Part shown: in pieces, positions 2,347-15,691 of the stretch | Numbering within the stretch: position 1 is the stretch's first letter | Layout of the letters: every line of letters begins with the position of its first letter | Assembly: GCA_039024295.1 (NCBI GenBank) | Contig: JBCDIQ010000100.1 | Location: forward strand, 1-15,691 | Direction of reading: 5' to 3' | Source of the DNA: Bacteroidota bacterium | GTDB lineage: Bacteria > Bacteroidota > Bacteroidia > J057 | DNA length: 15,691 bases | The notes under the pieces: generated by a model | Told to the model about the DNA's origin: nothing | The model's database searches: none | The model's input: only the letters and a program-made list of their open reading frames with translations | Translations under genes and position numbers: made by a program

Positions 2347-2841
2347 TCAGTTTTTCTCCAGCGGCACCAGCTCCTGCAACTTATCCATATCAAGGCTGGA
2401 GAATGCCCGGAAGTACTTCACGTCCAATGAGCCTTTCATCTCAATGATGCCTGCTGCATCGTTCATGTAAAGGGTCGCCACCCAGGTGGATTTATTACCA
2501 CTCGTGGCTAACTCATACACATGACAGCGGTAATCCTTATTGTCAAAAGTCATAATTTCTTCGAATCCCTCTGCTTGCACGCCTTTGTCCAGGGACTTGA
2601 ACGTAGATTTAGGGTCTCCTGCTCCAGGCTCGGTGGTCAGCACCCGAATGTGGTCCAGGTTACGGATCAGCATGTTGAAGTCCGGATTTTTGTCCTTGTT
2701 CATCATGCGAATCACGCTCTGGTAAAGAAATGCTGTATAGCCGTCTGCTTTTTTGGAGAAATTCTCTACGGTTTTACTTTGGGCAAATCCCTGGCTCCCA
2801 AATGCCATTACGAGTATTGAGATCAACAGGTATTTTTTCAT
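2347..2841 (-). CDS. Secreted DUF4252-like protein, 164 aa, Sec signal peptide
   Basis: N-terminal signal peptide MKKYLLISILVMAFGSQGFAQ. Its size and position downstream of the ECF sigma/anti-sigma pair are typical of DUF4252 paralogs. It shows distant similarity to the 2838-3359 product. Its start overlaps the upstream gene's stop by 4 bp. Confidence 0.65.
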   Translation of the reverse strand: MKKYLLISILVMAFGSQGFAQSKTVENFSKKADGYTAFLYQSVIRMMNKDKNPDFNMLIRNLDHIRVLTTEPGAGDPKSTFKSLDKGVQAEGFEEIMTFDNKDYRCHVYELATSGNKSTWVATLYMNDAAGIIEMKGSLDVKYFRAFSSLDMDKLQELVPLEKN

Positions 2842-3359
2842 TGGTCTACGTTTTGAAAGTGTTCAAATCCATCAATGTCCATTTTCTGGCTCAGCCGAGA
2901 GATATCCCGAAGGGAAATCTGGCCCACCAGGCTCATCACCATGAAGGATTTTCCCTCATAGCCTACCATCATCAATTCTGAAATGGTGCCATTGGCCTCG
3001 GTGATGAAAAACTTAAATTCTTGATCCCCGTCCTTAATGCTCATGAGCTCCTCCATGGCCTTAGCAGGCTTTTGGACTGCGGCGGTATAGAGGGACTTGG
3101 CATCTTCGACCTCCTCGCCTATCAACATCTTAAGGCCTTTTAGCTTGGAGATGGCTTCGACCAAGTCTTGCTCATCGGGGTCATCCATGTCGAATTCGGC
3201 AAAAAGGCCAAACATGCGACTTGAAACGGTAATGGAGGTAAACCTATCGTCCTCCTGGTATTGTTCAAAATAGCGATCTATCCCGCTACTTTGCGCCTGA
3301 AGGGCCACGCTGGCCAGCATCAGGAGGGAACATAAAAAAACTGATATCCTGTTCATCAC
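2838..3359 (-). CDS. Secreted DUF4252 domain protein, 173 aa
   Basis: Signal peptide MMNRISVFLCSLLMLASVALQAQ. The central block EELMSIKDGDQEFKFFITEANGTISELMMVGYEGKSFMVMSLVGQISL is clearly homologous to the 4460-5221 product (EELMSVKDDEETYGFYINENNGIVKELVMVGMGGTGFILMSLSGDMRL). Confidence 0.7.
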   Translation of the reverse strand: MMNRISVFLCSLLMLASVALQAQSSGIDRYFEQYQEDDRFTSITVSSRMFGLFAEFDMDDPDEQDLVEAISKLKGLKMLIGEEVEDAKSLYTAAVQKPAKAMEELMSIKDGDQEFKFFITEANGTISELMMVGYEGKSFMVMSLVGQISLRDISRLSQKMDIDGFEHFQNVDQ

Positions 3360-3374
3360 AATTGATTAAAAAAG

Positions 3375-3872
3375 TTAATGCTTGGTTAATTCCTTTTGGC
3401 TCTGGTGAAAGTTGACCATGATCCGGGTGTGCTTCATGCCGCTGTTCATTTTGCTGGAAACCTTCATAAGGGCTTTTTTTACTTCCATGTAGGCAATCTC
3501 GGGATCCTCGTAGGTATCAACGAATTCGTCTTCAATGACCTGGGCATTTCGGTTGGAATACTCATAGAAGCCCCAACTGAATCCGACCACCAAGGCGACT
3601 GCCGCGGCAGCCCTTCCAAGCCAAGCGGAATTCAGCCTTCGAACGGGATTGGGTTCCTTAATCTTGGCCATGAACTGCTGGTCAAATTCATCTCCAAGGC
3701 TAACCTCTGAACGTTCGGCATCCAGAAATCCTGCATATGCCCTTAACGGTTCCAGTTCGGGAGAAAGGTTTTCGGCATCCCGTACATATTCAAGCAGCAT
3801 CTGCTCTTCCCGATCGGTACAGGTACCTTTCCAGTATTTTTGGGCCAGTTGATGTAAAGTTTCAGGATTCAT
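3375..3872 (-). CDS. Putative anti-sigma factor, 165 aa, single-pass membrane protein
   Basis: It lies immediately downstream of the ECF sigma gene and overlaps it by 11 bp. It has one hydrophobic TM segment (AWLGRAAAAVALVVGFSWGFY) and a charged N-terminal cytoplasmic domain. This layout is typical of small anti-sigma partners. Confidence 0.6.
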   Translation of the reverse strand: MNPETLHQLAQKYWKGTCTDREEQMLLEYVRDAENLSPELEPLRAYAGFLDAERSEVSLGDEFDQQFMAKIKEPNPVRRLNSAWLGRAAAAVALVVGFSWGFYEYSNRNAQVIEDEFVDTYEDPEIAYMEVKKALMKVSSKMNSGMKHTRIMVNFHQSQKELTKH

Positions 3873-4374
3873 GACGATACTGATCTAAGAGGTATTTTTT
3901 TATGCGGGTCCGAGCACGGTGCAGCAGCACTTTGACATGGTTGACTTCGAGCTGGAGCAGTTCAGCTATTTCTTTGTAGCTGTACTGCTCCACATCCCGA
4001 AGCTGGATTACGGCACGCTGTTGTTCCGGCAAGGTGGCAATGACTGCCCGAACCTGCTTCAGGGTTTCACGGGCTACCGTTTGCCTCAAGGGTCCGGCTT
4101 CATGGGTGGGCAGATCAACTTGCTCATCTACCTGAACATAATGCCGGCCATGCTTGCGCAGTTTGTCTAAAGAACGGTTTCTGGTAAGGGTCATACACCA
4201 GGCTTCCGGGTTTTGAATACCACTGTCTGGCTTTTGTAAGTTTTCCCAGGCTTTCAACAGTACGTCCTGCACGACATCCATTGCATCTGCCTGATTCCCC
4301 AAGAAGGTCATGGCAAATCGAAAAAGACGATCTTTAAGGGGTAATATGTGCTGCTGAAACTCTTCTGCCGTCAT
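3862..4374 (-). CDS. RNA polymerase ECF-type sigma-70 factor. The most plausible start is MTAEEFQQ at 4374. The longest ORF extends to 4446.
   Basis: Region 2 reads LFRFAMTFLGNQADAMDVVQDVLLKAWENL. Region 4 is a helix-turn-helix, AVIQLRDVEQYSYKEIAELLQLEVNHVKVLLHRARTRIKK. The 24-codon N-terminal extension (MEISLSATRIEPNIASNQLSALPA) has no counterpart in typical ECF sigma factors, so the internal Met was chosen. Confidence 0.85.
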   Translation of the reverse strand: MTAEEFQQHILPLKDRLFRFAMTFLGNQADAMDVVQDVLLKAWENLQKPDSGIQNPEAWCMTLTRNRSLDKLRKHGRHYVQVDEQVDLPTHEAGPLRQTVARETLKQVRAVIATLPEQQRAVIQLRDVEQYSYKEIAELLQLEVNHVKVLLHRARTRIKKYLLDQYRHES

Positions 4375-4459
4375 GGCTGGTAAAGCCGAAAGTTGATTCG
4401 AAGCAATATTGGGTTCTATTCGGGTTGCAGACAAGCTAATTTCCATACCAATAACTCTC

Positions 4460-5221
4460 CTACTGGATGGTTACGCGCTTCTTGATGCTGACCTTATCAT
4501 TTTCAAGTGAAATGATGTACATACCTGTTGCAAGGCCATGGGTAGAGATGGACCGCGAAGTACTTTCAAGTGAATAACTGCGGATGACTTCTCCTTTCAT
4601 CGTTATCAATTTTGCTGTGCCCCCAATCAGGCTTTCAGGTACGTCTACTGTAACTTTATTGCCAGCAGTGGTAGGATTAGGGTATACTTTGACTTTATCA
4701 ATTCCGCTTTCATTGAGTTTCTTCATCTGGGCATACTCGTCCGACTTGATAAAACGAGCCACTTTAAAAATCTGATTTAAGCGCATGTCACCAGACAAGG
4801 ACATTAAAATAAACCCTGTACCCCCCATTCCCACCATCACCAATTCTTTCACGATACCGTTGTTTTCATTGATGTAAAAGCCATACGTCTCCTCATCGTC
4901 TTTGACGCTCATAAGCTCTTCAAACTCTGGCTGAATTTTCTTTAACACAGCTTCATAGTCAGCAACAGGACGCTTCTCTTCCTTCTTTACAATCAAGTCA
5001 AGCGCTTTAATCGTGCTTAGAAAGTCACGCAACTCTTCCAAATCTGCATTTTCTTCTTCCACTTCAAGATAAGCAGCCATCTCGAACATCTTTTTAGGCA
5101 AATGGGCATAAACCACATCTTCCTGGTCTAGGTATTCTGGAAAGTGGTGTTCGATCACATTCTGACCAAAGGCAAACTGACATGCCAACAGGGCGATAAA
5201 GGTAATTGCTAAGGGTTTCAT
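4460..5221 (-). CDS. DUF4252-like domain protein fused to a T9SS C-terminal sorting domain. The start is at 5221 (MKPLAITFIALLACQFAFGQ). The longest ORF extends to 5284.
   Basis: A signal peptide begins at the internal Met. The central region is homologous to the 2838-3359 DUF4252 protein. The C-terminal ~80 aa (KVKVYPNPTTAGNKVTVDV...GMYIISLENDKVSIKKRVTIQ) carries the YPNP hallmark of Por/T9SS secretion tails. Confidence 0.7.
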   Translation of the reverse strand: MKPLAITFIALLACQFAFGQNVIEHHFPEYLDQEDVVYAHLPKKMFEMAAYLEVEEENADLEELRDFLSTIKALDLIVKKEEKRPVADYEAVLKKIQPEFEELMSVKDDEETYGFYINENNGIVKELVMVGMGGTGFILMSLSGDMRLNQIFKVARFIKSDEYAQMKKLNESGIDKVKVYPNPTTAGNKVTVDVPESLIGGTAKLITMKGEVIRSYSLESTSRSISTHGLATGMYIISLENDKVSIKKRVTIQ

Positions 5222-5274
5222 TTCGTTGAAATTAAATGATGGAAAGTAACCGATCCTTATCGGTTCGACAGCAA

Positions 5275-5299
5275 GACGAACCACGCGGCTATATGTTAC
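5275..5299 (-). promoter_or_regulatory. Candidate ECF-type promoter for the DUF4252/sigma operon (- strand), reading GTAAC, 16 nt, CGTC
   Basis: The - strand reads tGTAACatatagccgcgtggttCGTCtt. An AAC -35 and CGTC -10 with a 16-nt spacer match the general ECF promoter architecture. It lies about 55-80 nt upstream of the 5221 start. It was found by pattern only. Confidence 0.25.
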
Positions 5300-5703: not shown

Positions 5704-6906
5704 TTAGAATAACGACAATTGATTATCCTCCGGCGGCTTGGGACGTCTTTCCACGGTCCGTCCACCATATTTCCAGGAATCCCTGTTTTCTTTTTCCAGT
5801 ACTTCCTCCAAGGTGCTGGTCTGTTGATCGGTTTCCTCCCGTTTTTGTGCCAATTGAGTCAATTTCTGGATCGCCTGCTGTTTGTCCGTTTCCCCAATCT
5901 TGGCCCTGTCAACTGCCTTTCGCAAGGTAGTGATCGTTTCGTCATACACTTTGGTCGGAACTGGGAACGGCCTGCCTCCTTTGCCGCCATGCGCAAACGC
6001 AAACCGCGCCGGGTCCGAAAACCGTGAAGGCGTTCCGTGAATAACTTCGCTTACCAACGTGAGGGACTGGAGGGTTCTCGGACCAAGTCCTTTTAGCAGG
6101 AGCAGTTCTTCAAAATTTTCCGTTTGCTGGTCCTGAGCAAGTCCAATGATGCTGTGCAGGCGTTTAAAATCCACGTCCTTCGGACGAATGCCATATTGCT
6201 GGGGCACCAATAGCTTGGGCACTTCTTTGAGCAGCTTATCCGGATTTTCTCCGGTGATGTCGATGATGCCTGCACGGGTCTCCTTTGCTTTTCCTGAAAC
6301 CAGATTTATAATCTCTCCCTGGGAAGGACCACAAACTGCGGCGTGAGGTTCGTTCACAAAGGATTCCACCAGTTCGGAATGCCAATGGTAACGCCGAGCA
6401 CTTTTGTCATCGGGTTTCATTCCCTGCTGAATGACCGTCCAATCACCTTTATCACTCACCAGAAAGTTGTGCAGATATAATTGGTACCCATCCTGGACGG
6501 CAGCGTTGTCTACCTTTGCCGTGAGTTTGCTATTCCGCACAAGTGCATCAGCGTCCAACCCTGTTGCATCCCCAATTCTCAATAACTCATGAGGCGTTTG
6601 CAGGGACTGTTTTCCTTTTCCTCCACAGATATACAAGCCCAATTCTTTCGAATGAGGAGAGATAGATTCCTTCAACGCACGCATCACAGCCGTGGTCACA
6701 CCGGATGAATTCCAATCCATGCCGATGACTGCGCCGAAGCTCTGAAACCAAAAGGGGTCCGACATCCGCGACAAAAAGCCTGCATGGCCATACTCAGTGA
6801 GGATTGCCTCCACAATGGCAAGGCTCAGCTTCCGCATCCGGTCAAAGAGCCAGTAGGGAATGCCTCCTCCCATGAGGGTAAGGTCTGCCGAGCCTGCGTG
6901 TTTCAT
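5704..6906 (-). CDS. DUF763 family protein, 400 aa, conserved protein of unknown function
   Basis: The N-terminus MKHAGSADLTLMGGGIPYWLFDRMRKLSLAIVEAILTEYGHAGFLSRMSDPFWFQSFGAVIGMDWNSSGVTTAV matches my recollection of the conserved DUF763 N-terminal block. This is recognition from memory, not a search. It is transcribed divergently from the glycosyltransferase gene. Confidence 0.65.
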   Translation of the reverse strand: MKHAGSADLTLMGGGIPYWLFDRMRKLSLAIVEAILTEYGHAGFLSRMSDPFWFQSFGAVIGMDWNSSGVTTAVMRALKESISPHSKELGLYICGGKGKQSLQTPHELLRIGDATGLDADALVRNSKLTAKVDNAAVQDGYQLYLHNFLVSDKGDWTVIQQGMKPDDKSARRYHWHSELVESFVNEPHAAVCGPSQGEIINLVSGKAKETRAGIIDITGENPDKLLKEVPKLLVPQQYGIRPKDVDFKRLHSIIGLAQDQQTENFEELLLLKGLGPRTLQSLTLVSEVIHGTPSRFSDPARFAFAHGGKGGRPFPVPTKVYDETITTLRKAVDRAKIGETDKQQAIQKLTQLAQKREETDQQTSTLEEVLEKENRDSWKYGGRTVERRPKPPEDNQLSLF

Positions 6907-7020: not shown

Positions 7021-8502
7021 ATGAAACGAATTCCCACACTAATTCTCTTCTTCGCCACCATTAAGCTGGTGGTCCAATTACTGGGCAATCGCAATTATGG
7101 GTTTCATCGAGATGAACTACTCCACCTCTCCGTGGGTGAGCATCTCGACTGGGGGTTCATGGAGTTTCCGCCTGGTATCGCCTTCCTGGGAAAACTATCT
7201 CATGTCCTTTTTGATGCCTCATTGATGGGCACCCGCCTATTTCCCACGATTGCAGGCGTATTGATCTTGATCCTGTGCTGCCAAATGGCACTGGCATTGG
7301 GGGGTAAATACAGAAGTGTGTTATTAGCCGCGATGTGCATCCTGGCGTTTCTCCCCTTTTATCGAAATCATACCCTGTTCCAGCCGGTGGCCTTTGACCA
7401 ACTCTGGTGGACCCTCGGGTTTTACCTACTCATCAGGTATGTCAATTCCGAAAAACCTGTGTTTTTACTTTTGACAGGATTGGTTCTGGGCCTGGGATTG
7501 ATGACCAAGTACACCATGCTGGTGTGGGCCTTCGGGATTTTCATAGGTCTGCTTTTCCCTCCAACAAGAAAAGTGTTCCGATCCCCCTGGCTGTATGCAG
7601 GAGGAATCCTCGCTTTGGTGATCTGGCTCCCCAACCTCCTGTGGCAGTGGGAACATGAATTTCCTTTATTCCGTCATTTACAGGCCTTGCAAACCGGGCA
7701 GGAAGGAAGTAGCCCGCAAGTCGATTTCATGCTAAACCAATTGATCCTGCCGGCAACCTTTGTAGTGAGCGTGATCGGAGCAGGTGCCTTACTGAGTTGG
7801 CAAAAGTACCGATCTCTCGGAGTTGCGGCCCTGATCATCTTTTTTACCCTGCTGATGCTTGGTGCTAAGTCTTATTATGTGTTTGCCGTTTATCCTGTAC
7901 TCTTTGCAGCAGGCAGCGTCAAACTTGAACAATGGATGATGCAGAAAAAGATGACCTGGACCTATCTGCTGGCAGCCTCTATTTTGGTTCCTTTTATTCC
8001 TTTCATTCCTCAATTGACCCCCATTTTACCCATTGAAACCTTTGTAAAGTATGAGGGATTGGAACCACAAAATTGCCGTTATGAGCTCACAAGTGATTAT
8101 GCGGATATGTTTGGATGGGAAGAACAGGCTCAGTTGGTAGATAGCGTATACCGTTCCCTTTCGCCGGAAGACCAAGTCAGCTGTGTGATTTGGGCAGAAA
8201 ATTATGGAGAGGCAGGCGCCATCAAAATTCTTGGTAAATCATATGGCCTACCCAATCCCATCAGTCGTCATGGAAGCTTTTGGAACTGGGGCTATGGAAA
8301 TCCGGACGCAAGTGTTTGGATCAGCCTCGGAAATGAGTTCCCTGCTGTAAATGATGTTTTTGAGGAAGTACTATTGATCAAAATGATTTACCATCCTTAC
8401 GCCATCGACGAGGAACATAACATTCCCCTTTACCTGTGCAGGAACCCCAAAGTGGATATCCCTAAATGGTGGCAGGAATATAAACCCTACGTATTTCAAT
8501 GA
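7021..8502 (+). CDS. GT39/ArnT-like (PMT_2) integral-membrane glycosyltransferase, 493 aa
   Basis: About 10-12 TM segments. The N-terminal motif YGFHRDELLHLSVGEHLDWGFMEFPPGIAFLGK resembles the DE..Y...A..L.WGY.D.PP signature of ArnT/PMT-family lipid-linked sugar transferases, with the catalytic DE dyad near the first periplasmic loop. Confidence 0.75.
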   Translation: MKRIPTLILFFATIKLVVQLLGNRNYGFHRDELLHLSVGEHLDWGFMEFPPGIAFLGKLSHVLFDASLMGTRLFPTIAGVLILILCCQMALALGGKYRSVLLAAMCILAFLPFYRNHTLFQPVAFDQLWWTLGFYLLIRYVNSEKPVFLLLTGLVLGLGLMTKYTMLVWAFGIFIGLLFPPTRKVFRSPWLYAGGILALVIWLPNLLWQWEHEFPLFRHLQALQTGQEGSSPQVDFMLNQLILPATFVVSVIGAGALLSWQKYRSLGVAALIIFFTLLMLGAKSYYVFAVYPVLFAAGSVKLEQWMMQKKMTWTYLLAASILVPFIPFIPQLTPILPIETFVKYEGLEPQNCRYELTSDYADMFGWEEQAQLVDSVYRSLSPEDQVSCVIWAENYGEAGAIKILGKSYGLPNPISRHGSFWNWGYGNPDASVWISLGNEFPAVNDVFEEVLLIKMIYHPYAIDEEHNIPLYLCRNPKVDIPKWWQEYKPYVFQ

Positions 8503-8661: not shown

Positions 8662-9306
8662 ATGAAAGAACTACTGGATGCTGCCGTATCTCCAGCAAAT
8701 ATTATCATCACCGGGCTACTCATCTTTATCCTGCTATATTGGATCACCGTCATCCTTGGCGTGATCGACCTGGATGCAGTCGACTTTGATGTGGACGTCG
8801 ATGTAGATGCAGACGTGGACATTGATGCCGATGTAGATGCCAGTGGTGTCAGTTGGTTTAACTCCGTCTTAGCATTTTTTAACCTGGGGCATGTACCGTT
8901 TATGGTGTTCATGACTTGTTGGATCGTGCCTGCCTGGGCCATTTGTATCATAGCCAATGACAAATTGGGCATTAGCAGTTTTGGGGTAGGATTAGGCATC
9001 ATGGCAGGGGGACTTTTTGCAAGTCTATTTATTGCCAAGATCGCGACACAACCTTTTGTGAGAATCTTTGCCAAAATTGACCAGGAAGCGAAGGAAAACC
9101 AGCGAATTAGAGGCAAGATATGCACGGTCACCATTGGTACGACTGCTACCTCAACGGGGCAAGCCACCATTAATACCTCCGGTGCGCCCCTGCTGATTAA
9201 TGTCCGAACTTCGGAAGGCGTAGAAATGCAAAAAGGAGACACCGGACTTGTACTTGAACTTATCGATAACCAGAATATTTACCTCATAGAACCCTTTAAT
9301 GATTAA
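8662..9306 (+). CDS. NfeD-like (YqiJ-type) membrane protein, 214 aa, flotillin-associated
   Basis: N-terminal TM helices, an acidic DVD-repeat loop, further TM helices, and a C-terminal beta-rich soluble domain (ICTVTIGTTATSTGQATINTSGAPLLINV...GDTGLVLELIDNQNIYLIEP) typical of the NfeD OB-fold. It ends 3 bp before the flotillin start. Confidence 0.75.
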   Translation: MKELLDAAVSPANIIITGLLIFILLYWITVILGVIDLDAVDFDVDVDVDADVDIDADVDASGVSWFNSVLAFFNLGHVPFMVFMTCWIVPAWAICIIANDKLGISSFGVGLGIMAGGLFASLFIAKIATQPFVRIFAKIDQEAKENQRIRGKICTVTIGTTATSTGQATINTSGAPLLINVRTSEGVEMQKGDTGLVLELIDNQNIYLIEPFND

Positions 9307-9309
9307 TCC

Positions 9310-11478
9310 ATGGGAGAATACATTGTACTTGTCATGTTGATTTCTGCTGTTGTCCTAGTGTTAGGATTAATAGTACTGTTCATTCGAATGTACCGGAAGG
9401 CGGTACAAGGTGAAGCCTTGGTGCGAACTGGATTGGGCGATGTCAAGGTATCTTTTTCAGGTCTATTAGTTATTCCAGTGGTCCACAAGCTGGAAGTGAT
9501 GGACATTACCCTCAAAACGCTGACCATTTCTCGCCTGGGGAAAGATGGCCTGATTTGTAAGGACAATATGCGAGCGGACATCAAGGTAAGCTTCTTTGTC
9601 CGGGTAAATAAAACCCGTGACGATGTGGTCCATGTGGCACAATCTATCGGCTGCCACCGGGCATCCGAAATTCAGGAGCTGGAAATGCTGTTTGATGCCA
9701 AATTTTCAGAAGCCCTGAAAACAGTAGGAAAGCATTTTGACTTTGTGGAGCTCTATAACTCCCGTGCAAATTTCAAGGAAAAGATCATCCAGGAAATTGG
9801 TACAGACCTCAACGGATATGTACTCGACGACTGCGCCATTGACTACGTGGAGCAAACTTCTCTCAGTGACTTGAATGAAAACAACATCTTGGATGCCCAG
9901 GGCATCAAGAAAATCATTGAGCTGACTGCTGCGGAAAAAGTAAAGTCCAACTTGATTAAGCGGGAGCAGGAAAAGACCATCAAAAAGCAAGATGTAGAAG
10001 CCCGAGAAACCATCCTCGAACTGGAACGCCAGTTGGCTGAAAAGGAAGAGCAACAAAAACGTGAAGTTGACAACATCAAAGCCCGCGAAGCGGCCGAAAT
10101 AGAAAAAGTCCGTCAGGAAAACGAACTCAAGGCGCAACAGGCGCGCATTGAAAAGGAAGAAGAACTGGGCATTGCAGAAGAGAATAAGCTGCGCCAGATC
10201 ATTGTCGCCAAAAAGAACAGGGAAAAAGCACAGGCAGTTGAAACGGAGCGCGTAGAGCAGGCACGGGCATTGGAAGAAACCGAGCGTGAGCGCGTGGTTG
10301 AATTGGCTCAAATCGACAAGGAAAAAATCTTGGAAGTAGAACGCAGGAACATCCAGGAAGTGATCCGCGAGCGGGTAACGGTTGAAAAAGCTACCGTAGA
10401 GGAAGAAGAGAAGATCAAGGATACCCGAGCCACTGCCGAGGCAGAGCGGAATAAGCTGGTGGCCATTACTGTAGCTGAGCAAAAAGCCCAGGAAGCCCTG
10501 GTGCAGGAAATCAAAATGGCAGAAGCTGCCAAGCAGGCATCTGAAGAGCTGGCGAAAAAAGCTTTGATTGATGCAGAAGCGGAACAAGCTGCCGCAGTTC
10601 ACAAGGCTGAAGCCATGAAAACCCTGGCAGAAGCAGAGGCGGCACAGAAAGCAGCTATCGGTATGTCCGAGGCACAAGTGATGTCTGCGAAAGCAGAAGC
10701 CCGTGAAAAAGAAGGAGAAGCCGAGGCATCTGTAATTGAAATGCAGTCTGAGGCAGAAGCCAAAGGCATCAAGATGAAAGCCGCGGCACAGGCCGAAGCT
10801 GACGAGAAGCTTGGTATCGTAGCTGCCAAGGTTGCCCTGGAGCAAGGGAAGGCCGAAGCGGAAGTGATCGAAATACAAGCGCAGGCCAATGAGAAACAAG
10901 GGTTGGTAGAAGCCCGTGTGATCACGGCCAAGCTCAAAGCCGATGCCGATGGCATCACCGAAAAGGCAGCGGCCATGAAGGCCCTCGATGGCCCTGGAAT
11001 GGAGCACGAAGAGTTCAAACTTCGTCTGGAAAAAGCGCGTGAGGTAGAACTTGCCCAGATTGAGGTGAACAAATCCATCGCAATGGCACAGGCTGAGGTA
11101 CTCGCCGAAGCCATGAAGTCAGCCAACATTGACATCATCGGTGGAGAGTCTGCCTTCTTTAAGCAAATTACAGGGGCAGTGGCCAACGGTAAATCCGTGG
11201 ATGGCTTGGTGAACGGCAGCCATGTGCTTTCTGACGTCAAGCGTGCCTTCCTGGACAATGGCGGAGGAGATTCCTTCAAAGAGAATATCTCTCAACTGAT
11301 CCGGTCGCTGAATGTCTCTTCCGAGGACATCAAGAACCTGTCAATCTCTGCCTTGCTGTATAAGTTGCTTAACAGCACCCAGGAAGACCACCTCAAGCGG
11401 AACTTGCGCCAATTACTTGGTGTAGCTGAAGCCAGCGGCCTACAGGGAGAGACCTTACACTCCCTCGGTATTAAGTAA
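9310..11478 (+). CDS. Flotillin family protein, 722 aa, with an SPFH/band-7 domain
   Basis: N-terminal TM anchor, then an SPFH domain (about 30-210 aa). A long A/E/K-rich coiled-coil region follows (EA-repeat flotillin domain), then the conserved flotillin C-terminus. It is paired with the NfeD gene as in yqiJ-yqiK and yuaF-floT operons. Confidence 0.85.
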   Translation: MGEYIVLVMLISAVVLVLGLIVLFIRMYRKAVQGEALVRTGLGDVKVSFSGLLVIPVVHKLEVMDITLKTLTISRLGKDGLICKDNMRADIKVSFFVRVNKTRDDVVHVAQSIGCHRASEIQELEMLFDAKFSEALKTVGKHFDFVELYNSRANFKEKIIQEIGTDLNGYVLDDCAIDYVEQTSLSDLNENNILDAQGIKKIIELTAAEKVKSNLIKREQEKTIKKQDVEARETILELERQLAEKEEQQKREVDNIKAREAAEIEKVRQENELKAQQARIEKEEELGIAEENKLRQIIVAKKNREKAQAVETERVEQARALEETERERVVELAQIDKEKILEVERRNIQEVIRERVTVEKATVEEEEKIKDTRATAEAERNKLVAITVAEQKAQEALVQEIKMAEAAKQASEELAKKALIDAEAEQAAAVHKAEAMKTLAEAEAAQKAAIGMSEAQVMSAKAEAREKEGEAEASVIEMQSEAEAKGIKMKAAAQAEADEKLGIVAAKVALEQGKAEAEVIEIQAQANEKQGLVEARVITAKLKADADGITEKAAAMKALDGPGMEHEEFKLRLEKAREVELAQIEVNKSIAMAQAEVLAEAMKSANIDIIGGESAFFKQITGAVANGKSVDGLVNGSHVLSDVKRAFLDNGGGDSFKENISQLIRSLNVSSEDIKNLSISALLYKLLNSTQEDHLKRNLRQLLGVAEASGLQGETLHSLGIK

Positions 11479-11526
11479 AGAATCTATCAGGGGTCAGGCC
11501 CTGCTCTGGCCCCCATTCTTATCCTT

Positions 11527-11543
11527 CACCTTCGTACAAGGTG
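11527..11543 (+). other. Short perfect hairpin CACCTT-cgtac-AAGGTG between the flotillin gene and the giant ORF. It has no following U-tract.
   Basis: A 6-bp stem with a 5-nt loop, read directly from the sequence. It is followed by aaaattcaacttt rather than a T-run, so it is unlikely to be an efficient intrinsic terminator. Confidence 0.2.
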
Positions 11544-11584
11544 AAAATTCAACTTTGAGTTAGCATACCATCTAATATATCCGA

Positions 11585-14500
11585 ATGGCAGCGCCTACTG
11601 CATCAGAAATTCAACTGGAGGGGGGCACTTATGAGGTGTTGAAAAACCGTCTGGAGAAAAGTGCCAATCAACTTACCTCAGCCACCAAAAAGCTGGATGA
11701 GCGTCGGAAAGAAGTATTTGGCGGCATCGAAACCCGCCTGATTTCTGCTGAACGCATCACCACCGCTCATAACTGTGTGCCGCGGGACATGGTGCCCATC
11801 GGGGAGCAATTTATTTTTGGGTACAATGTCCACCTGGGCCTGAAAACGCATGTGGAACTGGAAGATGTGTTCAGCTTCCATGCCTACCGCGACCACCATT
11901 TCCCGATACTGGAAAAACCCCTGCTGCAAGACGAGCAGTTCATCTCGGACTTTGAGAAACTCTATAAATACTATAAAAACACCCAGTTTTCACGATTTGA
12001 CCGAAAAGGGCCGCACCTGTACATGGTGTTCCAAATCGGCAAGACCGCCAAAGAAATCAAAGCTTTCAAATGGCTGGTATCGGGAGATGGTTTGACCTAT
12101 TTGGATAACCGGAGCGACCACGAAGTTCGTCCGCCGGAGCAGTACGCCTTCCGGTGGAAACGCACCAACCGCGAAGCCCAACGACTGGGAGAATTCTCTC
12201 ATATATCGGTAGAGGATCAGGTATTCGTGGAGGTGTCTCGCGGTAGGCTGACCTTGAAAGTGGAGGACAATACCGATTCAGGTCAGGGAATCTTTGTGGA
12301 GGAGGTGGAGCAAGTTGAGCAAAGCCTGGACGATGTAGAGGTGCAATATTCCCTCATGGGGAACTTGGTGCTGCTCAAAATTAAGCCCTACCTGGAAAAG
12401 ACATATCGGTACTATGTCTTTAACCGGAAGCTCCAGGAGGCCCAAAACATTCCGGCCCTGGCGCAAAGCTGTATCCTCTTGCCAGAAGACCAGGGAATCA
12501 TGTTTCCCAACGGATATTATTTGCAAAATGGCGCCTACAAACTGTTTGACAGTGACCTGGGCGAAATGCGCTACCAGCGGATGATCCCCTCTCCCAATGG
12601 CGAGGACTACCTCTATATTTTTTATCAGCCTGATCACGGCATTTACCAACTGCTTCCCTATAACCTGATCAGCCAGCAGGTGGAAACGCCCATTATGTGT
12701 CATGGATACGCCATCTTTGATAACGGGGAGTTGTGCTTTTTCAATTCTGATGAGGAACCCAAAAAGCACCATGCCACCAAAATCTGGCAAACCCCTTTTA
12801 CCGGCCCTGATTTCCAATCCAGTGTACGCAGCGATTCCTACCTGTTTAAGATTGGCAATAAAGAACTGGTCCGGGCGCTTTCAGAATGCAACGAACTACT
12901 TACCCTGGTTGCGAAGGGAGAAAATTACGAGGGCCTATATGTAGACCTGCAAAAACTGGCTACCGACATCACGGACAGCTACCACTGGCTGGGACACGAG
13001 GAATCAGGCAACCTCCTGGAGCCCTTGAGCGATATTCGCCAGACCTCGGAGTTGGCCATTGAGGAGTATGAGAAGGTGGTCAGCATAAAAAAGAATACTA
13101 GCCAGCAACTGGAGGAGGTTACGGAGCGCATTACCTCCTTGCTGAATAAGATTAGCCGGGAATCACAGCCCAGCATAGAGAAGTTTGTAGCAAACCTGGC
13201 CAGCCTGCGGACCATGAGGGGGGAATTGGAAACCCTCAAGACCCTTCGCTACATTGACGAGGCCACGGTACAATCCTTTCAGGAAAAGCTTGCAGATGAA
13301 AACCAACGGTATGCAGAACGCTGTGTGGTATTCTTGCTGCGCGAAGATGCCCTGCGTCCTTATGAGAAACGAATCGAGGACCTGGAGCAGGAAATCATCG
13401 AGGTAAGTAAAGTCGTTGATGCCGATACCCTGGGGGTAAAAATTGCCCAGGTGTCGGAAGATTTAGAGATGCTCATTGAAATTGTGGGCAACCTCAAAAT
13501 TGCAGATGCCACCCAAACTACTCAGATCATTGACAATATTTCCCTGCTGTTTTCCCGGCTGAACCAGGGACGTGCGACCCTGAACAACCAACGGAGATCG
13601 CTCCTGCGAGTAGAGGGAGAAGCCGAATTTAATGCCCAAATAAAGCTAATCGAGCAAGGCCTGACCAACTTCCTCGACCTTTCGGATACGCCAGAAAAAT
13701 GCGACGAGTACCTTGCCAAGCTGATGGTACAGTTGGAGGAGTTGGAAGCTAAGTTTGTAGAGTTCGATGATTTCATTGAAAAAATCAGTGAAAAGCGGGA
13801 GCAGGTGTACAGCAGTTTTGACACCCGGAAGGTTTCCTTGATCGAGGCCAAAAACCGCAGGGCCAATTCCCTGCAGACTGCAGCGAACCGAATTTTGAGC
13901 GCGGCCAAAAACCGTACCCTGAGGATGAAATCCGAAGAAGAGGTGAATACCTATTTCACTTCTGATCTCATGGTGGAAAAGCTCCGCACCATTGTTGCGG
14001 ACTTGCAGGAGCTCGGAGACACCATCAAGGCCGATGACCTACAGGGAAAAATGAAGTCCCTCCGTGAGGATGCCCTTCGCCAACTGCGGGACAAAAACGA
14101 ACTGTTCGCCGACTCGGATCAAGTCATCAAATTTGGCAAATACCACTTCTCGGTGAATACCCAGCCCATGGAGGTTACGGTGGTTCGGCGAGAGGAGCAG
14201 TTGTGGTACCACCTCACAGGCACCAGCCTGTATGAGGCCATTCCGGAAGCACATATCGGTCCAGCCACGCCTATTTGGGAGCAGGAATTGGTATCAGAAA
14301 ATGCACAGGTATATCGCGCTGAATACCTCGCTTACCAATTGCTGAAAGCGGCAGATGCCCCCGATGTATCTGGCATTTCGGTAGACGGGCTGATCCAGCT
14401 TACGCCCAAACAGTTGGAAGCGCGGGTCCAGGAATTCATGGCCGTGCGCTACAATGAGGGGTATGTCAAAGGAATTCATGACCATGATGCAGCCAAGCTG

Positions 14501-15691
14501 CTGACCAGCTTGCTGATCTTTTTCCGGTCGGGGGACCTGCTCAAATATGCTGCTGATGCCCGCGCATTTGCCCTGTATTTCTGGGAATTTTGCCTGGAAG
14601 CGTCAAAACGAGAAGCCCTCGTCAACCAGATTACGGGCCTGAGCAGCATCCTTGACATATTTCCGGACTCCCGGGCCTACCACGAATTGATTGCCTCGCT
14701 TACGGAGCAAATAGCAGCGGTGCGTACAGGTGAGTTTGAGCGGACCTCTGCCACAGCAGCAGCAAATTACCTCTTCCACGAACTCAGCAATCCGCAAGAT
14801 TATTCCCTTTCGGAGAATGCGGCTGCCCTGGCCCAGGCATTTAATGACTTCTTGAAGCAACAAAAGGGCGAACAGAAATTCGCGCAGTCCCTGGAATTAT
14901 TGCCAGATGCCACGTCTCAATTTGCCCTGGTGGTCAAATGGCTCAGTGCCTTTGTGGCCCATACCCAGCAGGCGGATGACCGTCCGTTTATTCGGGAGGC
15001 GGCCTTCCACCTTACCGGCAAAGACCTTGCTTTCCACACCCTTAACCTGCCGATGATTGAAGAAATCGGCGGACTGCTGGGGACACATGGCGTCATCCAC
15101 GATGGGAATTACCACATGAACTTCAACGAGTTCCTTTCCAAGCTGGACCATTTTGAGCAGGCGGTGGTGCCCGCTTATCAGCAGTTCCAGGAAGGCAAAC
15201 GCAAGCTGGTGGCTGATTTCTCAACCGAGTTGCGCATCTCCGAATTCCAACCTCGGGTGATGGCTTCCTTTGTCAGGAATAAACTCATCAATGATGTGTA
15301 CCTGCCATTGATCGGAGCCAACCTTGCCAAGCAAATCGGGGAAGTAGGCGAAGGCAAACGAACCGATCTCATGGGCATGCTGTTGTTGGTATCTCCTCCA
15401 GGATACGGTAAGACTACCCTCATGGAATACATCGCCAACAGGCTGGGGCTTATTTTCATGAAAATAAATGGCCCCGCCCTTGGGCATGAGCTACGCTCCC
15501 TCGACCCAGCAGACGCGCCCAATGCTGCCGCCAGAGAGGAGGTCAACAAGCTCAACCTGTCTTTTGAGATGGGAGACAATGTGATGATCTACCTGGACGA
15601 CATCCAGCATTGCCACCCGGAGTTTTTGCAGAAGTTTATCTCCTTGTGTGATGCCCAGCGTAAAATTGAGGGGGTGTACAAAGGACAAACC
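11585..15691 (+). CDS. Large multidomain protein with a C-terminal AAA+ ATPase domain. The CDS is partial, with at least 1369 aa in-window and the 3' end beyond the window. It is not present in the supplied ORF track.
   Basis: Manual translation starts at ATG 11585, which is preceded by an in-frame TAA at 11573-11575. The frame stays open for 4107 nt, exactly 1369 codons, to the last base of the window. The product begins MAAPTASEIQLEGGTYEVLKNRLEKS and ends at ...KIEGVYKGQT. The middle is strongly coiled-coil (about aa 470-860). The AAA P-loop LLLVSPPGYGKTTLMEYIANRLG has its Lys at codon 1276 (nt 15410-15412). The Walker B VMIYLDDIQHCHPEFLQKFISLCDAQRKIEGV (nt 15581 onward) resembles MoxR/AAA_5-type ATPases. 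The track shows only short ORFs in the other frames across these 4.1 kb. Confidence 0.85.
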   Translation, partial: MAAPTASEIQLEGGTYEVLKNRLEKSANQLTSATKKLDERRKEVFGGIETRLISAERITTAHNCVPRDMVPIGEQFIFGYNVHLGLKTHVELEDVFSFHAYRDHHFPILEKPLLQDEQFISDFEKLYKYYKNTQFSRFDRKGPHLYMVFQIGKTAKEIKAFKWLVSGDGLTYLDNRSDHEVRPPEQYAFRWKRTNREAQRLGEFSHISVEDQVFVEVSRGRLTLKVEDNTDSGQGIFVEEVEQVEQSLDDVEVQYSLMGNLVLLKIKPYLEKTYRYYVFNRKLQEAQNIPALAQSCILLPEDQGIMFPNGYYLQNGAYKLFDSDLGEMRYQRMIPSPNGEDYLYIFYQPDHGIYQLLPYNLISQQVETPIMCHGYAIFDNGELCFFNSDEEPKKHHATKIWQTPFTGPDFQSSVRSDSYLFKIGNKELVRALSECNELLTLVAKGENYEGLYVDLQKLATDITDSYHWLGHEESGNLLEPLSDIRQTSELAIEEYEKVVSIKKNTSQQLEEVTERITSLLNKISRESQPSIEKFVANLASLRTMRGELETLKTLRYIDEATVQSFQEKLADENQRYAERCVVFLLREDALRPYEKRIEDLEQEIIEVSKVVDADTLGVKIAQVSEDLEMLIEIVGNLKIADATQTTQIIDNISLLFSRLNQGRATLNNQRRSLLRVEGEAEFNAQIKLIEQGLTNFLDLSDTPEKCDEYLAKLMVQLEELEAKFVEFDDFIEKISEKREQVYSSFDTRKVSLIEAKNRRANSLQTAANRILSAAKNRTLRMKSEEEVNTYFTSDLMVEKLRTIVADLQELGDTIKADDLQGKMKSLREDALRQLRDKNELFADSDQVIKFGKYHFSVNTQPMEVTVVRREEQLWYHLTGTSLYEAIPEAHIGPATPIWEQELVSENAQVYRAEYLAYQLLKAADAPDVSGISVDGLIQLTPKQLEARVQEFMAVRYNEGYVKGIHDHDAAKLLTSLLIFFRSGDLLKYAADARAFALYFWEFCLEASKREALVNQITGLSSILDIFPDSRAYHELIASLTEQIAAVRTGEFERTSATAAANYLFHELSNPQDYSLSENAAALAQAFNDFLKQQKGEQKFAQSLELLPDATSQFALVVKWLSAFVAHTQQADDRPFIREAAFHLTGKDLAFHTLNLPMIEEIGGLLGTHGVIHDGNYHMNFNEFLSKLDHFEQAVVPAYQQFQEGKRKLVADFSTELRISEFQPRVMASFVRNKLINDVYLPLIGANLAKQIGEVGEGKRTDLMGMLLLVSPPGYGKTTLMEYIANRLGLIFMKINGPALGHELRSLDPADAPNAAAREEVNKLNLSFEMGDNVMIYLDDIQHCHPEFLQKFISLCDAQRKIEGVYKGQT

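What the first reader, a model, noticed from the sequence alone, without database searches (positions are those of the whole stretch)
11585..15691. A large gene missing from the ORF track: an open frame of at least 1369 codons running off the window edge, with a C-terminal AAA+ ATPase
The track is missing the CDS:
- The supplied ORF track shows only short, scattered ORFs in the last 4.1 kb.
- One + strand frame is completely stop-free from 11585 to 15691.
- That frame translates into a coherent protein. It has a roughly 470-aa N-terminal region with no motif I recognise. It has a roughly 390-aa heptad-rich coiled-coil segment. It then has a helical region and a canonical AAA P-loop (PPGYGKTT) followed by hhhhDD Walker B.
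- After the Walker B comes DDIQHCHPEFLQKFISLCDAQRKIEGV, which resembles the DEIN.A.P..Q.ALL..M.E.R.V..G segment of MoxR/AAA_5 ATPases.
- The track appears to drop ORFs lacking an in-window stop.

Why it matters:
- This is a very large (probably over 1500 aa) ATPase of unassigned family.
- It is encoded 106 bp downstream of an NfeD-flotillin pair.
Basis: seen in the sequence. Interest (0 to 1): 0.85.

Follow-up and report, generated by a model that had tools for sequence, protein, structure and literature searches.

The report
Known flotillin-linked giant AAA+ ATPase gene
The stop-free stretch is a real gene cut off by the end of the contig, already in GenBank as a partial "DNA repair ATPase"; it belongs to a widespread but untested family of giant ATPases that almost always sit next to a membrane-scaffold (flotillin) gene, so the DNA-repair name is probably wrong.

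Summary
Frame 11585-15691 (+) has 1369 codons and no stop, and it starts at an ATG three codons after an in-frame stop. It was missing from the ORF list only because ORFs that run off the sequence end are not listed.

The window is the whole contig. GenBank already holds this exact protein as "MAG: DNA repair ATPase, partial [Bacteroidota bacterium]". Full-length relatives are about 1610-1660 aa, so roughly 265 residues are missing.

The family is not unassigned:
- Pfam DUF3686 covers aa 30-467 (E=5e-176). It is modelled as a divergent beta-propeller.
- Pfam DUF7902 covers aa 588-672.
- A long helical region and a truncated AAA+ core follow.

In 61 of 64 genome loci from at least seven phyla the gene order is YqiJ-like, then flotillin-like, then this ATPase. 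Popp et al. 2024 already described this operon computationally. I found no experimental work.

The best inference, which is untested, is an ATP-driven remodeller of flotillin cages. Nothing supports a DNA-repair role.

The parts
11585..15691 (+). Partial CDS: the first 1369 codons of a gene of about 1635 codons, cut by the contig end. It encodes the DUF3686-DUF7902-AAA+ ATPase that GenBank names 'DNA repair ATPase, partial'.
   Evidence: No stops. A 100 % identical GenBank protein sits on a 15691-base contig. The protein is collinear with 1600-1660 aa homologues. It has no hydrophobic TM segment.
11672..12985 (+). DUF3686 domain (aa 30-467): an N-terminal helix followed by a divergent beta-propeller of about 6-7 blades.
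12986..14164 (+). Long helical, partly heptad-like region (aa 468-860) that contains DUF7902.
   Evidence: Pro+Gly content is 3-9 %. Amphipathic periodicity of 3.5-3.67 residues reaches z=7.3 in the family alignment. No structure was modelled for this stretch.
13346..13600 (+). DUF7902 (aa 588-672).
   Evidence: Pfam PF25472, E=2.2e-27.
14165..15259 (+). Mixed region before the ATPase core (aa 861-1225): a small beta unit followed by a helical bundle.
   Evidence: AF2 model of the homologous part of P0008, pLDDT mostly 80-93 in this stretch.
15260..15691 (+). N-terminal part of the AAA+ core. It holds Walker A SPPGYGKTT (15392-15418), Walker B VMIYLDD (15581-15601) and the start of the pre-sensor-1 hairpin (15659-15691). 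Sensor 1, the Arg finger and the lid lie beyond the contig.
   Evidence: Pfam AAA 29.6 bits; AAA_5 18 bits, below its cut-off in this truncated copy. The motifs are invariant in diverse homologues.
9310..11478 (+). Flotillin-family (YqiK-type) gene: an N-terminal TM helix, an SPFH domain, a long E/A/K-rich coiled coil and a conserved C-terminal region.
   Evidence: 32 % identity over 447 aa to E. coli YqiK, E=3e-47. One TM segment at aa 1-32. Found directly upstream of the ATPase in 61/64 loci.
8662..9306 (+). YqiJ/NfeD-like membrane protein: about 3 TM segments, an acidic DxD repeat and a C-terminal beta domain.
   Evidence: Pfam YqiJ_N E=3.7e-4, below the cut-off. A profile of 60 syntenic orthologues against E. 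coli YqiJ gives hhalign probability 96.6 %, E=7e-10 over 183 columns. Present in 60/64 loci.
11479..11584 (+). Spacer between the flotillin gene and the ATPase gene, with a GC-rich stem-loop at 11490-11513.
   Evidence: Terminator-like hit. RNA fold z=-2.4. Strong hairpins recur in this spacer in 25/33 related loci.

Best explanation
Shown:
- The open frame is the 5' ~84 % of one intact gene that the end of a 15.7-kb metagenomic contig truncates.
- It encodes a soluble protein of about 1635 aa. Its parts, in order, are a DUF3686 beta-propeller-like domain, a long helical region with DUF7902, a helical bundle, an AAA+ module and a helical tail.
- The gene is the third member of a cassette conserved across phyla: YqiJ/NfeD-like membrane protein, then YqiK-type flotillin, then this ATPase.
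- The window carries the short form of the cassette. It lacks the CesT-like/PspA pair that many Bacteroidota have upstream.

Inferred:
- The ATPase forms an AAA+ ring in the cytoplasm.
- Its propeller and long helical arm dock onto the cytoplasmic flotillin (SPFH) cage held at the membrane by the N-terminal anchor.
- ATP turnover is used to assemble, open or take apart that cage. In the long operons the same would apply to PspA polymers. The analogy is Vps4 acting on ESCRT-III or NSF acting on SNARE bundles.
- The 'DNA repair' name is a legacy label with no support here.
For: Gene reality and family:
- no stops, coding signature.
- DUF3686 E=4.6e-176, DUF7902 E=2e-27, AAA.
- a 100 % GenBank match plus more than 5184 homologues.
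- 1358 clusters at 50 % identity, collinear down to ~27 % identity.

Architecture:
- propeller-like N-terminal domain.
- AAA+ core with a pre-sensor-1 hairpin.
- MoxR-type CbbQ/NorQ and midasin are the top structural matches.
- Walker A, sensor-1 Asn and a candidate Arg finger are invariant or nearly so, which points to a working nucleotide site.
- no TM segment.

Linkage to flotillin:
- 61/64 loci have the flotillin gene and 60/64 have the YqiJ-like gene directly upstream on the same strand, with a median gap of 128 bp. The loci come from Bacteroidota, Planctomycetota, Verrucomicrobiota, Clostridia, Desulfobacterota, Kiritimatiellota and Fibrobacterota.
- the two neighbours are true YqiK and YqiJ homologues.
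- 24/64 loci add CesT-like plus PspA.

Literature:
- PMC11237479 describes the same operon and proposes roles in sub-membrane assembly.
- PMC7619361 notes that bacteria appear to lack a Vps4-like ATPase.
- PMC11260169 and PMC13000311 show that flotillins form closed 44-mer cages.
Against: - No experiment on any family member was found. The mechanism rests on gene order and fold alone.
- A strong hairpin usually separates the flotillin and ATPase genes. Co-transcription is therefore not shown.
- Three of 64 loci lack a nearby flotillin gene.
- Walker B is an invariant DD rather than DE. Hydrolysis may be slow, and the protein could act as a switch rather than a motor.
- No aromatic pore-loop motif is evident from reading the sequence.
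- MoxR-type ATPases usually work with a VWA partner. None of the gene clusters shared between the loci beyond the cassette was widespread; these were not screened for VWA domains.
- The P-loop strand region of the AAA+ model has low confidence, pLDDT below 50.
Confidence: 0.5

Rival explanations
1. It is what its database name says: an ATPase acting in DNA repair, for example an SMC/Rad50-like coiled-coil ATPase working on DNA.
For: - The Pfam description of DUF3686 is 'ATPase involved in DNA repair', and GenBank names the protein 'DNA repair ATPase'.
- There are weak RuvB_N P-loop matches, and RuvB is among the Foldseek hits.
- In Bacteroidota the long operon is preceded by an HTH_3 + Peptidase_S24 (LexA/CI-like) regulator.
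Against: - No DNA-binding, nuclease or SMC/Rad50/RecN domain matched at E<=1.
- The RuvB matches cover only ~45 residues around the P-loop and score far below the curated cut-offs: 22 bits against 282.
- No NCBIfam model supports the name.
- The conserved neighbours are membrane proteins, and no repair gene recurs nearby.
- No paper links the family to repair.
Confidence: 0.04
2. It is a MoxR-type maturation chaperone or nucleotide-dependent scaffold that is recruited to flotillin microdomains. It acts on some other client, such as a membrane complex housed in the cage, and does not remodel flotillin itself. It may work as a slow ATP switch.
For: - The top structural matches are the MoxR ATPases CbbQ and NorQ, which are named in those entries as a Rubisco activase (CbbQ) and as the partner of the VWA protein NorD (NorQ).
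- The invariant DD Walker B and the lack of an obvious aromatic pore loop fit a non-threading or slow ATPase.
- The beta-propeller is a typical protein-binding platform.
- S. aureus FloA/NfeD is reported to stabilise unfolded clients, as cited in PMC13086221.
Against: - No VWA/MIDAS partner and no conserved client gene appears in the cassette.
- The only universally linked genes are flotillin and YqiJ.
- Pfam AAA_3 (MoxR proper) does not match.
Confidence: 0.25
3. The adjacency is conserved but the ATPase is an independent transcription unit, with a role unrelated to flotillin.
For: - A terminator-like hairpin lies in the 106-bp spacer.
- Strong hairpins recur in this spacer in 25/33 loci.
- Three of 64 loci have the ATPase without a nearby flotillin gene.
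Against: - 95 % same-strand adjacency holds across at least seven phyla. That is hard to maintain without functional coupling.
- Internal hairpins are also a common way to set unequal expression within an operon (established knowledge).
- ATPase and flotillin divergence are correlated, r=0.80, although this is not independent of phylogeny.
Confidence: 0.12
4. It is part of an anti-phage defence or abortive-infection system: a large ATPase plus membrane effectors.
For: - Large multi-domain ATPases next to membrane proteins are common in defence islands (general knowledge).
- There are weak nSTAND3 P-loop matches.
- A CI/LexA-like regulator is present in the long operons.
Against: - None of the three proteins hit PADLOC.
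- The nSTAND matches cover ~23 residues and fall below the cut-off.
- The surrounding genes are housekeeping or envelope genes, not defence genes.
Confidence: 0.04

Closest known systems
[quoted passage not shown] 2024, mSystems, PMC11237479)
   Same: - The domain order is the same: propeller, helical region, AAA+.
[quoted passage not shown]
- The window matches what that paper calls the 'abbreviated operon', without PspA.
   Different: Nothing substantive. That paper gives no Pfam name and no experiment. Here the domains are tied to DUF3686/DUF7902 and the AAA+ clade is examined.
MoxR-family AAA+ ATPases (CbbQ, NorQ, RavA; Pfam AAA_3/AAA_5)
   Same: - A beta-hairpin sits between helix 3 and strand 4.
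- The motif layout after Walker B resembles hhhDE..P..Q..LL....R.V..G....viaTqNP...lp.Al.dRF. This last point is a comparison from memory.
   Different: - No VWA partner was seen among the shared neighbours.
- There are about 1220 extra N-terminal residues.
- Walker B is DD, not DE.
- There is no AAA_3 match, and AAA_5 and PF00004 score equally.
- A profile comparison with RavA aligns only the P-loop.
Vps4 acting on ESCRT-III
   Same: This is a functional analogy only: an AAA+ ATPase encoded next to a membrane-remodelling polymer. PspA is an ESCRT-III relative and is in the long form of the operon.
   Different: - It is not homologous beyond the AAA+ fold.
- There is no MIT domain.
- It has a pre-sensor-1 hairpin, which I recall classical-clade Vps4 lacks.
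FtsH with the HflK/C cage (an SPFH cage paired with an AAA+ machine)
   Same: An SPFH-family cage is genetically and functionally paired with an AAA+ ATPase (literature cited).
   Different: FtsH is a membrane-anchored classical AAA protease. This protein has no TM segment and no protease domain. The flotillin here is YqiK-type.

Membership tests
Pfam DUF3686/DUF7902 'DNA repair ATPase' family | Match to PF12458 above the gathering score | tested here: met
   586 bits against a cut-off of 25, aa 30-467, covering profile positions 2-448 of 448.
Pfam DUF3686/DUF7902 'DNA repair ATPase' family | Match to PF25472 (DUF7902), and a collinear full-length architecture ending in an AAA+ domain | tested here: met
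   DUF7902 scores 95.5 bits against a cut-off of 26. The protein is collinear with 1600-1660 aa homologues at 50-62 % identity over 99-100 % of the query, and with members down to ~27 % identity.
Flotillin-YqiJ-AAA+ operon of Popp et al. 2024 | An adjacent gene for a TM + band-7/SPFH + coiled-coil + flotillin protein | tested here: met
   Gene 9310-11478 is 32 % identical to E. coli YqiK over 447 aa, E=3e-47. It has one N-terminal TM segment. Pfam itself gives no hit.
Flotillin-YqiJ-AAA+ operon of Popp et al. 2024 | An adjacent YqiJ/YuaF-type multi-TM protein | tested here: met
   Gene 8662-9306: the orthologue profile against E. coli YqiJ gives hhalign probability 96.6 %, E=7e-10. Pfam YqiJ_N alone is below its cut-off, 21.1 against 23 bits. 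Pairwise BLAST is not significant.
Flotillin-YqiJ-AAA+ operon of Popp et al. 2024 | A CesT/Tir-like + PspA dyad upstream (the long form) | tested here: not met
   The upstream gene is a PMT_2 glycosyltransferase at 7021-8502. No PspA or CesT-like gene is in the window. The window therefore holds the short form; 24/64 related loci have the long form.
MoxR / AAA_5 clade of AAA+ | A pre-sensor-1 beta-hairpin between helix 3 and strand 4 | tested here: met
   The AF2 model of homologue P0008 has two strands, RKIEGV and TYDFRG, before strand 4. This is a prediction, not a solved structure. The window sequence stops inside this hairpin.
MoxR / AAA_5 clade of AAA+ | A helix-2 insert (beta-hairpin) and a repositioned lid (pre-sensor-2 insert) | tested here: inconclusive
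   The model shows a conserved ~18-residue loop between strand 2 and helix 2 but no hairpin. The geometry of the lid was not analysed.
MoxR / AAA_5 clade of AAA+ | Closest by sequence profile and by fold to MoxR/AAA_5 members | tested here: inconclusive
   By fold, CbbQ, NorQ and midasin rank first, but by only 1-2 Z units. By sequence, AAA_5 and PF00004 match all 21 members with equal best E-values of 3e-9. PDB profile hits cover only the P-loop. In the window copy AAA_5 scores 18 bits against a cut-off of 22.
MoxR / AAA_5 clade of AAA+ | A VWA/MIDAS partner protein encoded nearby | tested here: not met
   The only conserved neighbours are YqiJ-like and flotillin, with CesT/PspA/HTH-S24 in the long form. 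No other cluster is shared by more than 10 loci. The minor clusters were not scanned for VWA domains.
Classical AAA clade (PF00004: Vps4, p97, FtsH) | No pre-sensor-1 hairpin; a second region of homology with two arginines; Walker B hhhhDE | tested here: not met
   A hairpin is predicted. A single conserved Arg sits in ANRAD and Walker B is an invariant DD. PF00004 still scores above its cut-off, 29.6-34 bits, so the Pfam hit reflects the general AAA+ core.
DNA-repair ATPases (SMC/Rad50/RecN/RuvB-type) | A DNA-binding or repair-specific domain, or linkage to repair genes | tested here: not met
   No such Pfam or NCBIfam match was found. The RuvB equivalog scores 22 bits against a cut-off of 282. 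No repair gene is conserved nearby.
Known anti-phage defence systems | A match to a PADLOC model | tested here: not met
   None of the three cassette proteins gave a hit at E<=0.01.

The most novel reading that the evidence does not exclude
This ATPase family is the missing ATP-driven machine that opens or dismantles bacterial flotillin (SPFH) cages and, in the long operons, PspA/ESCRT-III-like polymers. It would be a non-homologous bacterial counterpart of Vps4, built on a MoxR-like AAA+ core with a propeller-and-helical-arm substrate adaptor. The recurrent hairpin before the gene would keep its dosage low relative to the scaffold.
Probability: 0.3. Interest if true: 0.75.

Novelty: already known. 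Interest (0 to 1): 0.3.

Why it matters
As a discovery it matters little:
- The gene is already in GenBank.
- Its domains are in Pfam.
- Its operon has been described.
- The 'missing ORF' is an edge artefact.

It is still useful in two ways:
- The automatic name 'DNA repair ATPase' sits on thousands of database entries and has no support. The near-universal context is YqiJ-flotillin, which argues for a membrane role.
- How bacterial flotillin and PspA assemblies are taken apart is an open question; a 2025 review notes that bacteria appear to lack a Vps4-like ATPase (PMC7619361). This conserved giant ATPase is an obvious candidate, and it can be tested in cultured Pontibacter, Hymenobacter, Fulvivirga or Flavobacteriia.

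Tried and rejected
- **Extending the contig.** A look-up of the flotillin protein found no record. The GenBank contig is exactly the window.
- **Other protein libraries.** PADLOC gave nothing. NCBIfam gave only sub-threshold RuvB/CDC48 P-loop hits.
- **Placing the AAA+ domain by sequence.** phmmer against the PDB and a 21-sequence profile against the PDB aligned only ~35-70 residues around the P-loop. They mixed midasin with classical AAA. hhalign against E. coli RavA aligned 22 columns at probability 19 %. The Pfam census was a tie between AAA and AAA_5.
- **The flotillin gene in Pfam.** There was no hit even at E<=10, and a PDB sequence search gave none. It was resolved by direct comparison with E. 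coli YqiK.
- **The YqiJ-like gene.** Pairwise BLAST of the 214-aa protein against YqiJ was not significant. A profile comparison resolved it.
- **Other conserved partners.** All-against-all clustering of ORFs in 82 loci found none shared by more than 10 loci. The other large clusters are antisense shadow ORFs.
- **Literature.** Searches for DUF3686, PF12458, 'DNA repair ATPase' with flotillin or with phage shock protein, and flotillin with AAA and disassembly found no experimental study.
- **Two genes, a frameshift or a pseudogene.** Rejected.
- **Divergence correlation.** The ATPase-flotillin correlation was computed but is not independent of phylogeny, so it carries little weight.

Full report
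**Observation.**
- Translating window 11585-15691 on the + strand gives 1369 codons with no stop. The other five frames of the same stretch carry 17-71 stops.
- From base composition, the chance of such a run is about 6e-29. GC at the three codon positions is 58/33/62 %, as expected for a coding frame.
- An in-frame stop sits at 11573-11575, so the ATG at 11585 is the first available start.
- The ORF listing reports only 80-179 aa ORFs here. Its stated rule is that ORFs running off an end are not listed. The 'missing gene' is therefore an edge artefact of ORF listing.

**Identity.**
- A search of 5.8 billion proteins returns a 100 % identical, 1369-aa entry named 'MAG: DNA repair ATPase, partial [Bacteroidota bacterium]'. 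It lies on a contig of 15691 bases, so the window is the whole deposited contig.
- More than 5184 relatives pass E<=1e-10. The nearest are 54-62 % identical, cover 99-100 % of the query and are 1617-1661 aa long (Fulvivirga, Mangrovivirga, Pontibacter, Hymenobacter and others). About 265 residues are therefore missing, and there is no frameshift.
- A filter-free search of 1.84 billion cluster representatives finds 1358 clusters at E<=1e-3 and 420 at E<=1e-30. They stay collinear over the 1200 residues searched, in proteins of about 1600-1800 aa, down to ~27 % identity. Members include Fibrobacterota and a Vibrio.

**Domains.**
- Pfam places DUF3686 (PF12458, 'ATPase involved in DNA repair') on aa 30-467 with E=4.6e-176. 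It places DUF7902 on aa 588-672 with E=2e-27, and a truncated AAA domain from aa 1266. The family is therefore not unassigned, although both N-terminal domains are of unknown function.
- NCBIfam gives only sub-threshold RuvB/CDC48 P-loop matches, for example 22 bits against a cut-off of 282. PADLOC gives nothing.
- An AlphaFold2 model of aa 1-480 (pLDDT 82, pTM 0.82) shows a long N-terminal helix, six to seven four-stranded beta repeats and a C-terminal helical pair.
- Residues ~440-860 are poor in Pro/Gly and show patches of strong 3.5-3.67-residue amphipathic periodicity in the family alignment, with z up to 7.3. This fits long helices. I could not model the region, so a continuous coiled coil is unproven.
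- The protein has no hydrophobic transmembrane segment.

**The ATPase module.**
- I modelled aa 860-1639 of the complete homologue P0008, encoded in L001 (pLDDT 78.6). Mapped onto its sequence, the model shows in order:
  - strand 1 and the P-loop SPPGYGKTT;
  - strand 2;
  - a conserved ~18-residue loop;
  - helix 2;
  - strand 3 with VMIYLDD;
  - helix 3;
  - a two-stranded hairpin (RKIEGV / TYDFRG);
  - strand 4 ending in AGNP;
  - the segment PDMLANRAD;
  - a helical lid and tail.
- The strand-1 segment just before the P-loop has pLDDT below 50.
- The window sequence stops inside the hairpin.
- Walker A, the DD of Walker B, the sensor-1 Asn and the Arg of ANRAD are invariant or nearly so across 21-28 diverse members.
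- Foldseek gives its highest target-normalised TM scores to NorQ and CbbQ, 0.47-0.56.
- Sequence-only methods are equivocal:
  - AAA and AAA_5 match all 21 members with equal E-values.
  - PDB profile hits cover only the P-loop.
  - RavA aligns over 22 columns.
The margin is small, and membership is not established: no AAA_3 match, no VWA partner, DD instead of DE.

**Context.**
- The 722-aa upstream protein gives no Pfam hit even at E<=10. It is nonetheless 32 % identical over 447 aa to E. coli YqiK (E=3e-47) and has one N-terminal TM helix.
- The 214-aa protein before it has about three TM segments. A profile of its 60 syntenic orthologues matches E. coli YqiJ over nearly its full length, hhalign probability 96.6 % and E=7e-10.
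- A scan of one genome per species found at least 580 stretches that encode a relative. I fetched 80 of these loci.
- Among the 64 loci with at least 3.2 kb of upstream sequence:
  - 61 have the flotillin gene directly upstream on the same strand;
  - 60 have the YqiJ-like gene there too;
  - the median flotillin-ATPase gap is 128 bp.
- These loci span Bacteroidota, Planctomycetota, Verrucomicrobiota, Clostridia, Desulfobacterota, Kiritimatiellota and Fibrobacterota.
- Twenty-four loci, all Bacteroidota, also carry PspA further upstream. Twenty-two of these have a CesT/YbjN-like gene and a divergent HTH_3-Peptidase_S24 regulator.
- The window has the short form. A PMT_2 glycosyltransferase gene precedes the cassette, and no PspA is present.
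- No other partner is shared by more than 10 loci.

**What is already known.**
- Popp et al. 2024 (PMC11237479) describe exactly this. [quoted passage not shown]
- They also note abbreviated operons without PspA that are widely distributed. They propose roles in the assembly of sub-membrane complexes.
- I found no paper that mentions DUF3686 or PF12458, and no experimental study of the ATPase.
- A 2025 review notes that bacteria appear to lack a Vps4-like ATPase for PspA (PMC7619361).
- Eukaryotic flotillins form closed 44-mer cages on membranes (PMC11260169 and PMC13000311, listed).

**Mechanism.**
- Shown:
  - one intact, strongly conserved gene for a soluble AAA+ protein with preserved nucleotide-site residues;
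  - obligate-looking adjacency to a YqiK-type flotillin and a YqiJ-type partner.
- Inferred:
  - the protein forms an AAA+ ring;
  - its propeller and helical arm engage the cytoplasmic flotillin cage, or its YqiJ partner;
  - it uses ATP to assemble, open or dismantle that cage, and PspA polymers in the long operons.
- I give this specific mechanism about 0.3-0.4. I give 'acts with or on the flotillin/YqiJ assembly in some way' about 0.7.
- Points against:
  - the invariant DD Walker B and the lack of an obvious aromatic pore loop would also fit a slow switch or a MoxR-like chaperone for another client;
  - a strong hairpin in the spacer (11490-11513) means co-transcription is unproven. Such a hairpin recurs in 25/33 related loci.
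- The DNA-repair reading has no support beyond the inherited name.

**Verdict.** It is a contig-edge partial CDS that is already annotated, belongs to a catalogued family and sits in a published operon type. The remaining interest lies in the probably wrong 'DNA repair' label and in the untested possibility that this family is the ATP-driven remodeller of bacterial flotillin/PspA assemblies.

Noticed in passing
window 11479-11584 (hairpin 11490-11513); also the flotillin-ATPase spacers of L001, L025, L034, L039, L040, L047, L059, L065 and others: A strong stem-loop lies just after the flotillin stop codon in the window. One recurs in 25 of 33 related loci (best 40-nt hairpin z<-2 against mononucleotide shuffles; median z -3.3). 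The sequence is not conserved, and some copies have a T-rich tail. It may be an internal terminator or attenuator that keeps ATPase dosage below flotillin dosage.
   Followed up: partly
window 9310-11478: The flotillin-like protein gets no Pfam hit even at E<=10 and no PDB sequence hit, yet it is clearly homologous to E. coli YqiK (E=3e-47). The E/A/K-rich coiled coil probably triggers HMMER's bias filters. Automated annotation could miss such genes.
   Followed up: yes
window 9706-11007 (-), 10599-11279 (-); composition 9500-11000: Long antisense ORFs (433 and 226 aa) lie inside the flotillin coiled-coil region, together with extreme AT skew (up to 0.45) and GC skew. Similar antisense ORFs form a large spurious cluster across 79 loci. 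They are shadow ORFs of the repetitive E/A/K coding sequence.
   Followed up: partly
window 15581-15601; family alignments A2 and A4: Walker B is hhhhDD, with both Asp residues invariant across the diverse members aligned, instead of the usual DE. The consequence for hydrolysis is unknown.
   Followed up: partly
L001 4976-7106; L002 4709-6851; 22-24 Bacteroidota loci: The long form of the operon starts with a divergently transcribed HTH_3 + Peptidase_S24 (LexA/CI-like, self-cleaving type) regulator, followed by a CesT/YbjN-like gene and PspA. This hints at induction by repressor cleavage. It is absent from the window.
   Followed up: partly
L002 1-4323 (- strand): A second PspA-CesT dyad lies beside the cassette, together with DUF4178, DUF350 and a spermine-synthase-like gene. 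This matches the polyamine-linked PspA operon class of Popp et al. 2024.
   Followed up: no
L012, L014, L020, L023 (Planctomycetota) compared with L040-L066 (Flavobacteriia): The Planctomycetota ATPases are 48-51 % identical to this Bacteroidota protein. That is as close as or closer than the Flavobacteriia copies (44-47 %). It suggests either cross-phylum transfer of the whole cassette or very strong constraint.
   Followed up: no
L037 9859-15253: In this Rubripirellula MAG the ATPase is recovered only as an 887-aa ORF that starts 2.7 kb after the flotillin gene. This is probably a frameshift, an assembly error or a pseudogene.
   Followed up: no
L015, L029, L046: Three loci with 7.6-10 kb of upstream sequence carry the ATPase without a nearby flotillin or YqiJ-like gene. 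Their different neighbours were not characterised.
   Followed up: partly
window 2347-5284 (-): This stretch holds an ECF sigma factor gene (3862-4446), a 165-aa ORF with no family (3375-3872) and three DUF4252 paralogues. One paralogue (4460-5284) carries a Por_Secre_tail (type IX secretion sorting) domain.
   Followed up: no
window 5704-6906 (-): A 400-aa DUF763 protein (E=6e-128) is transcribed divergently from the PMT_2 glycosyltransferase gene at 7021-8502.
   Followed up: no
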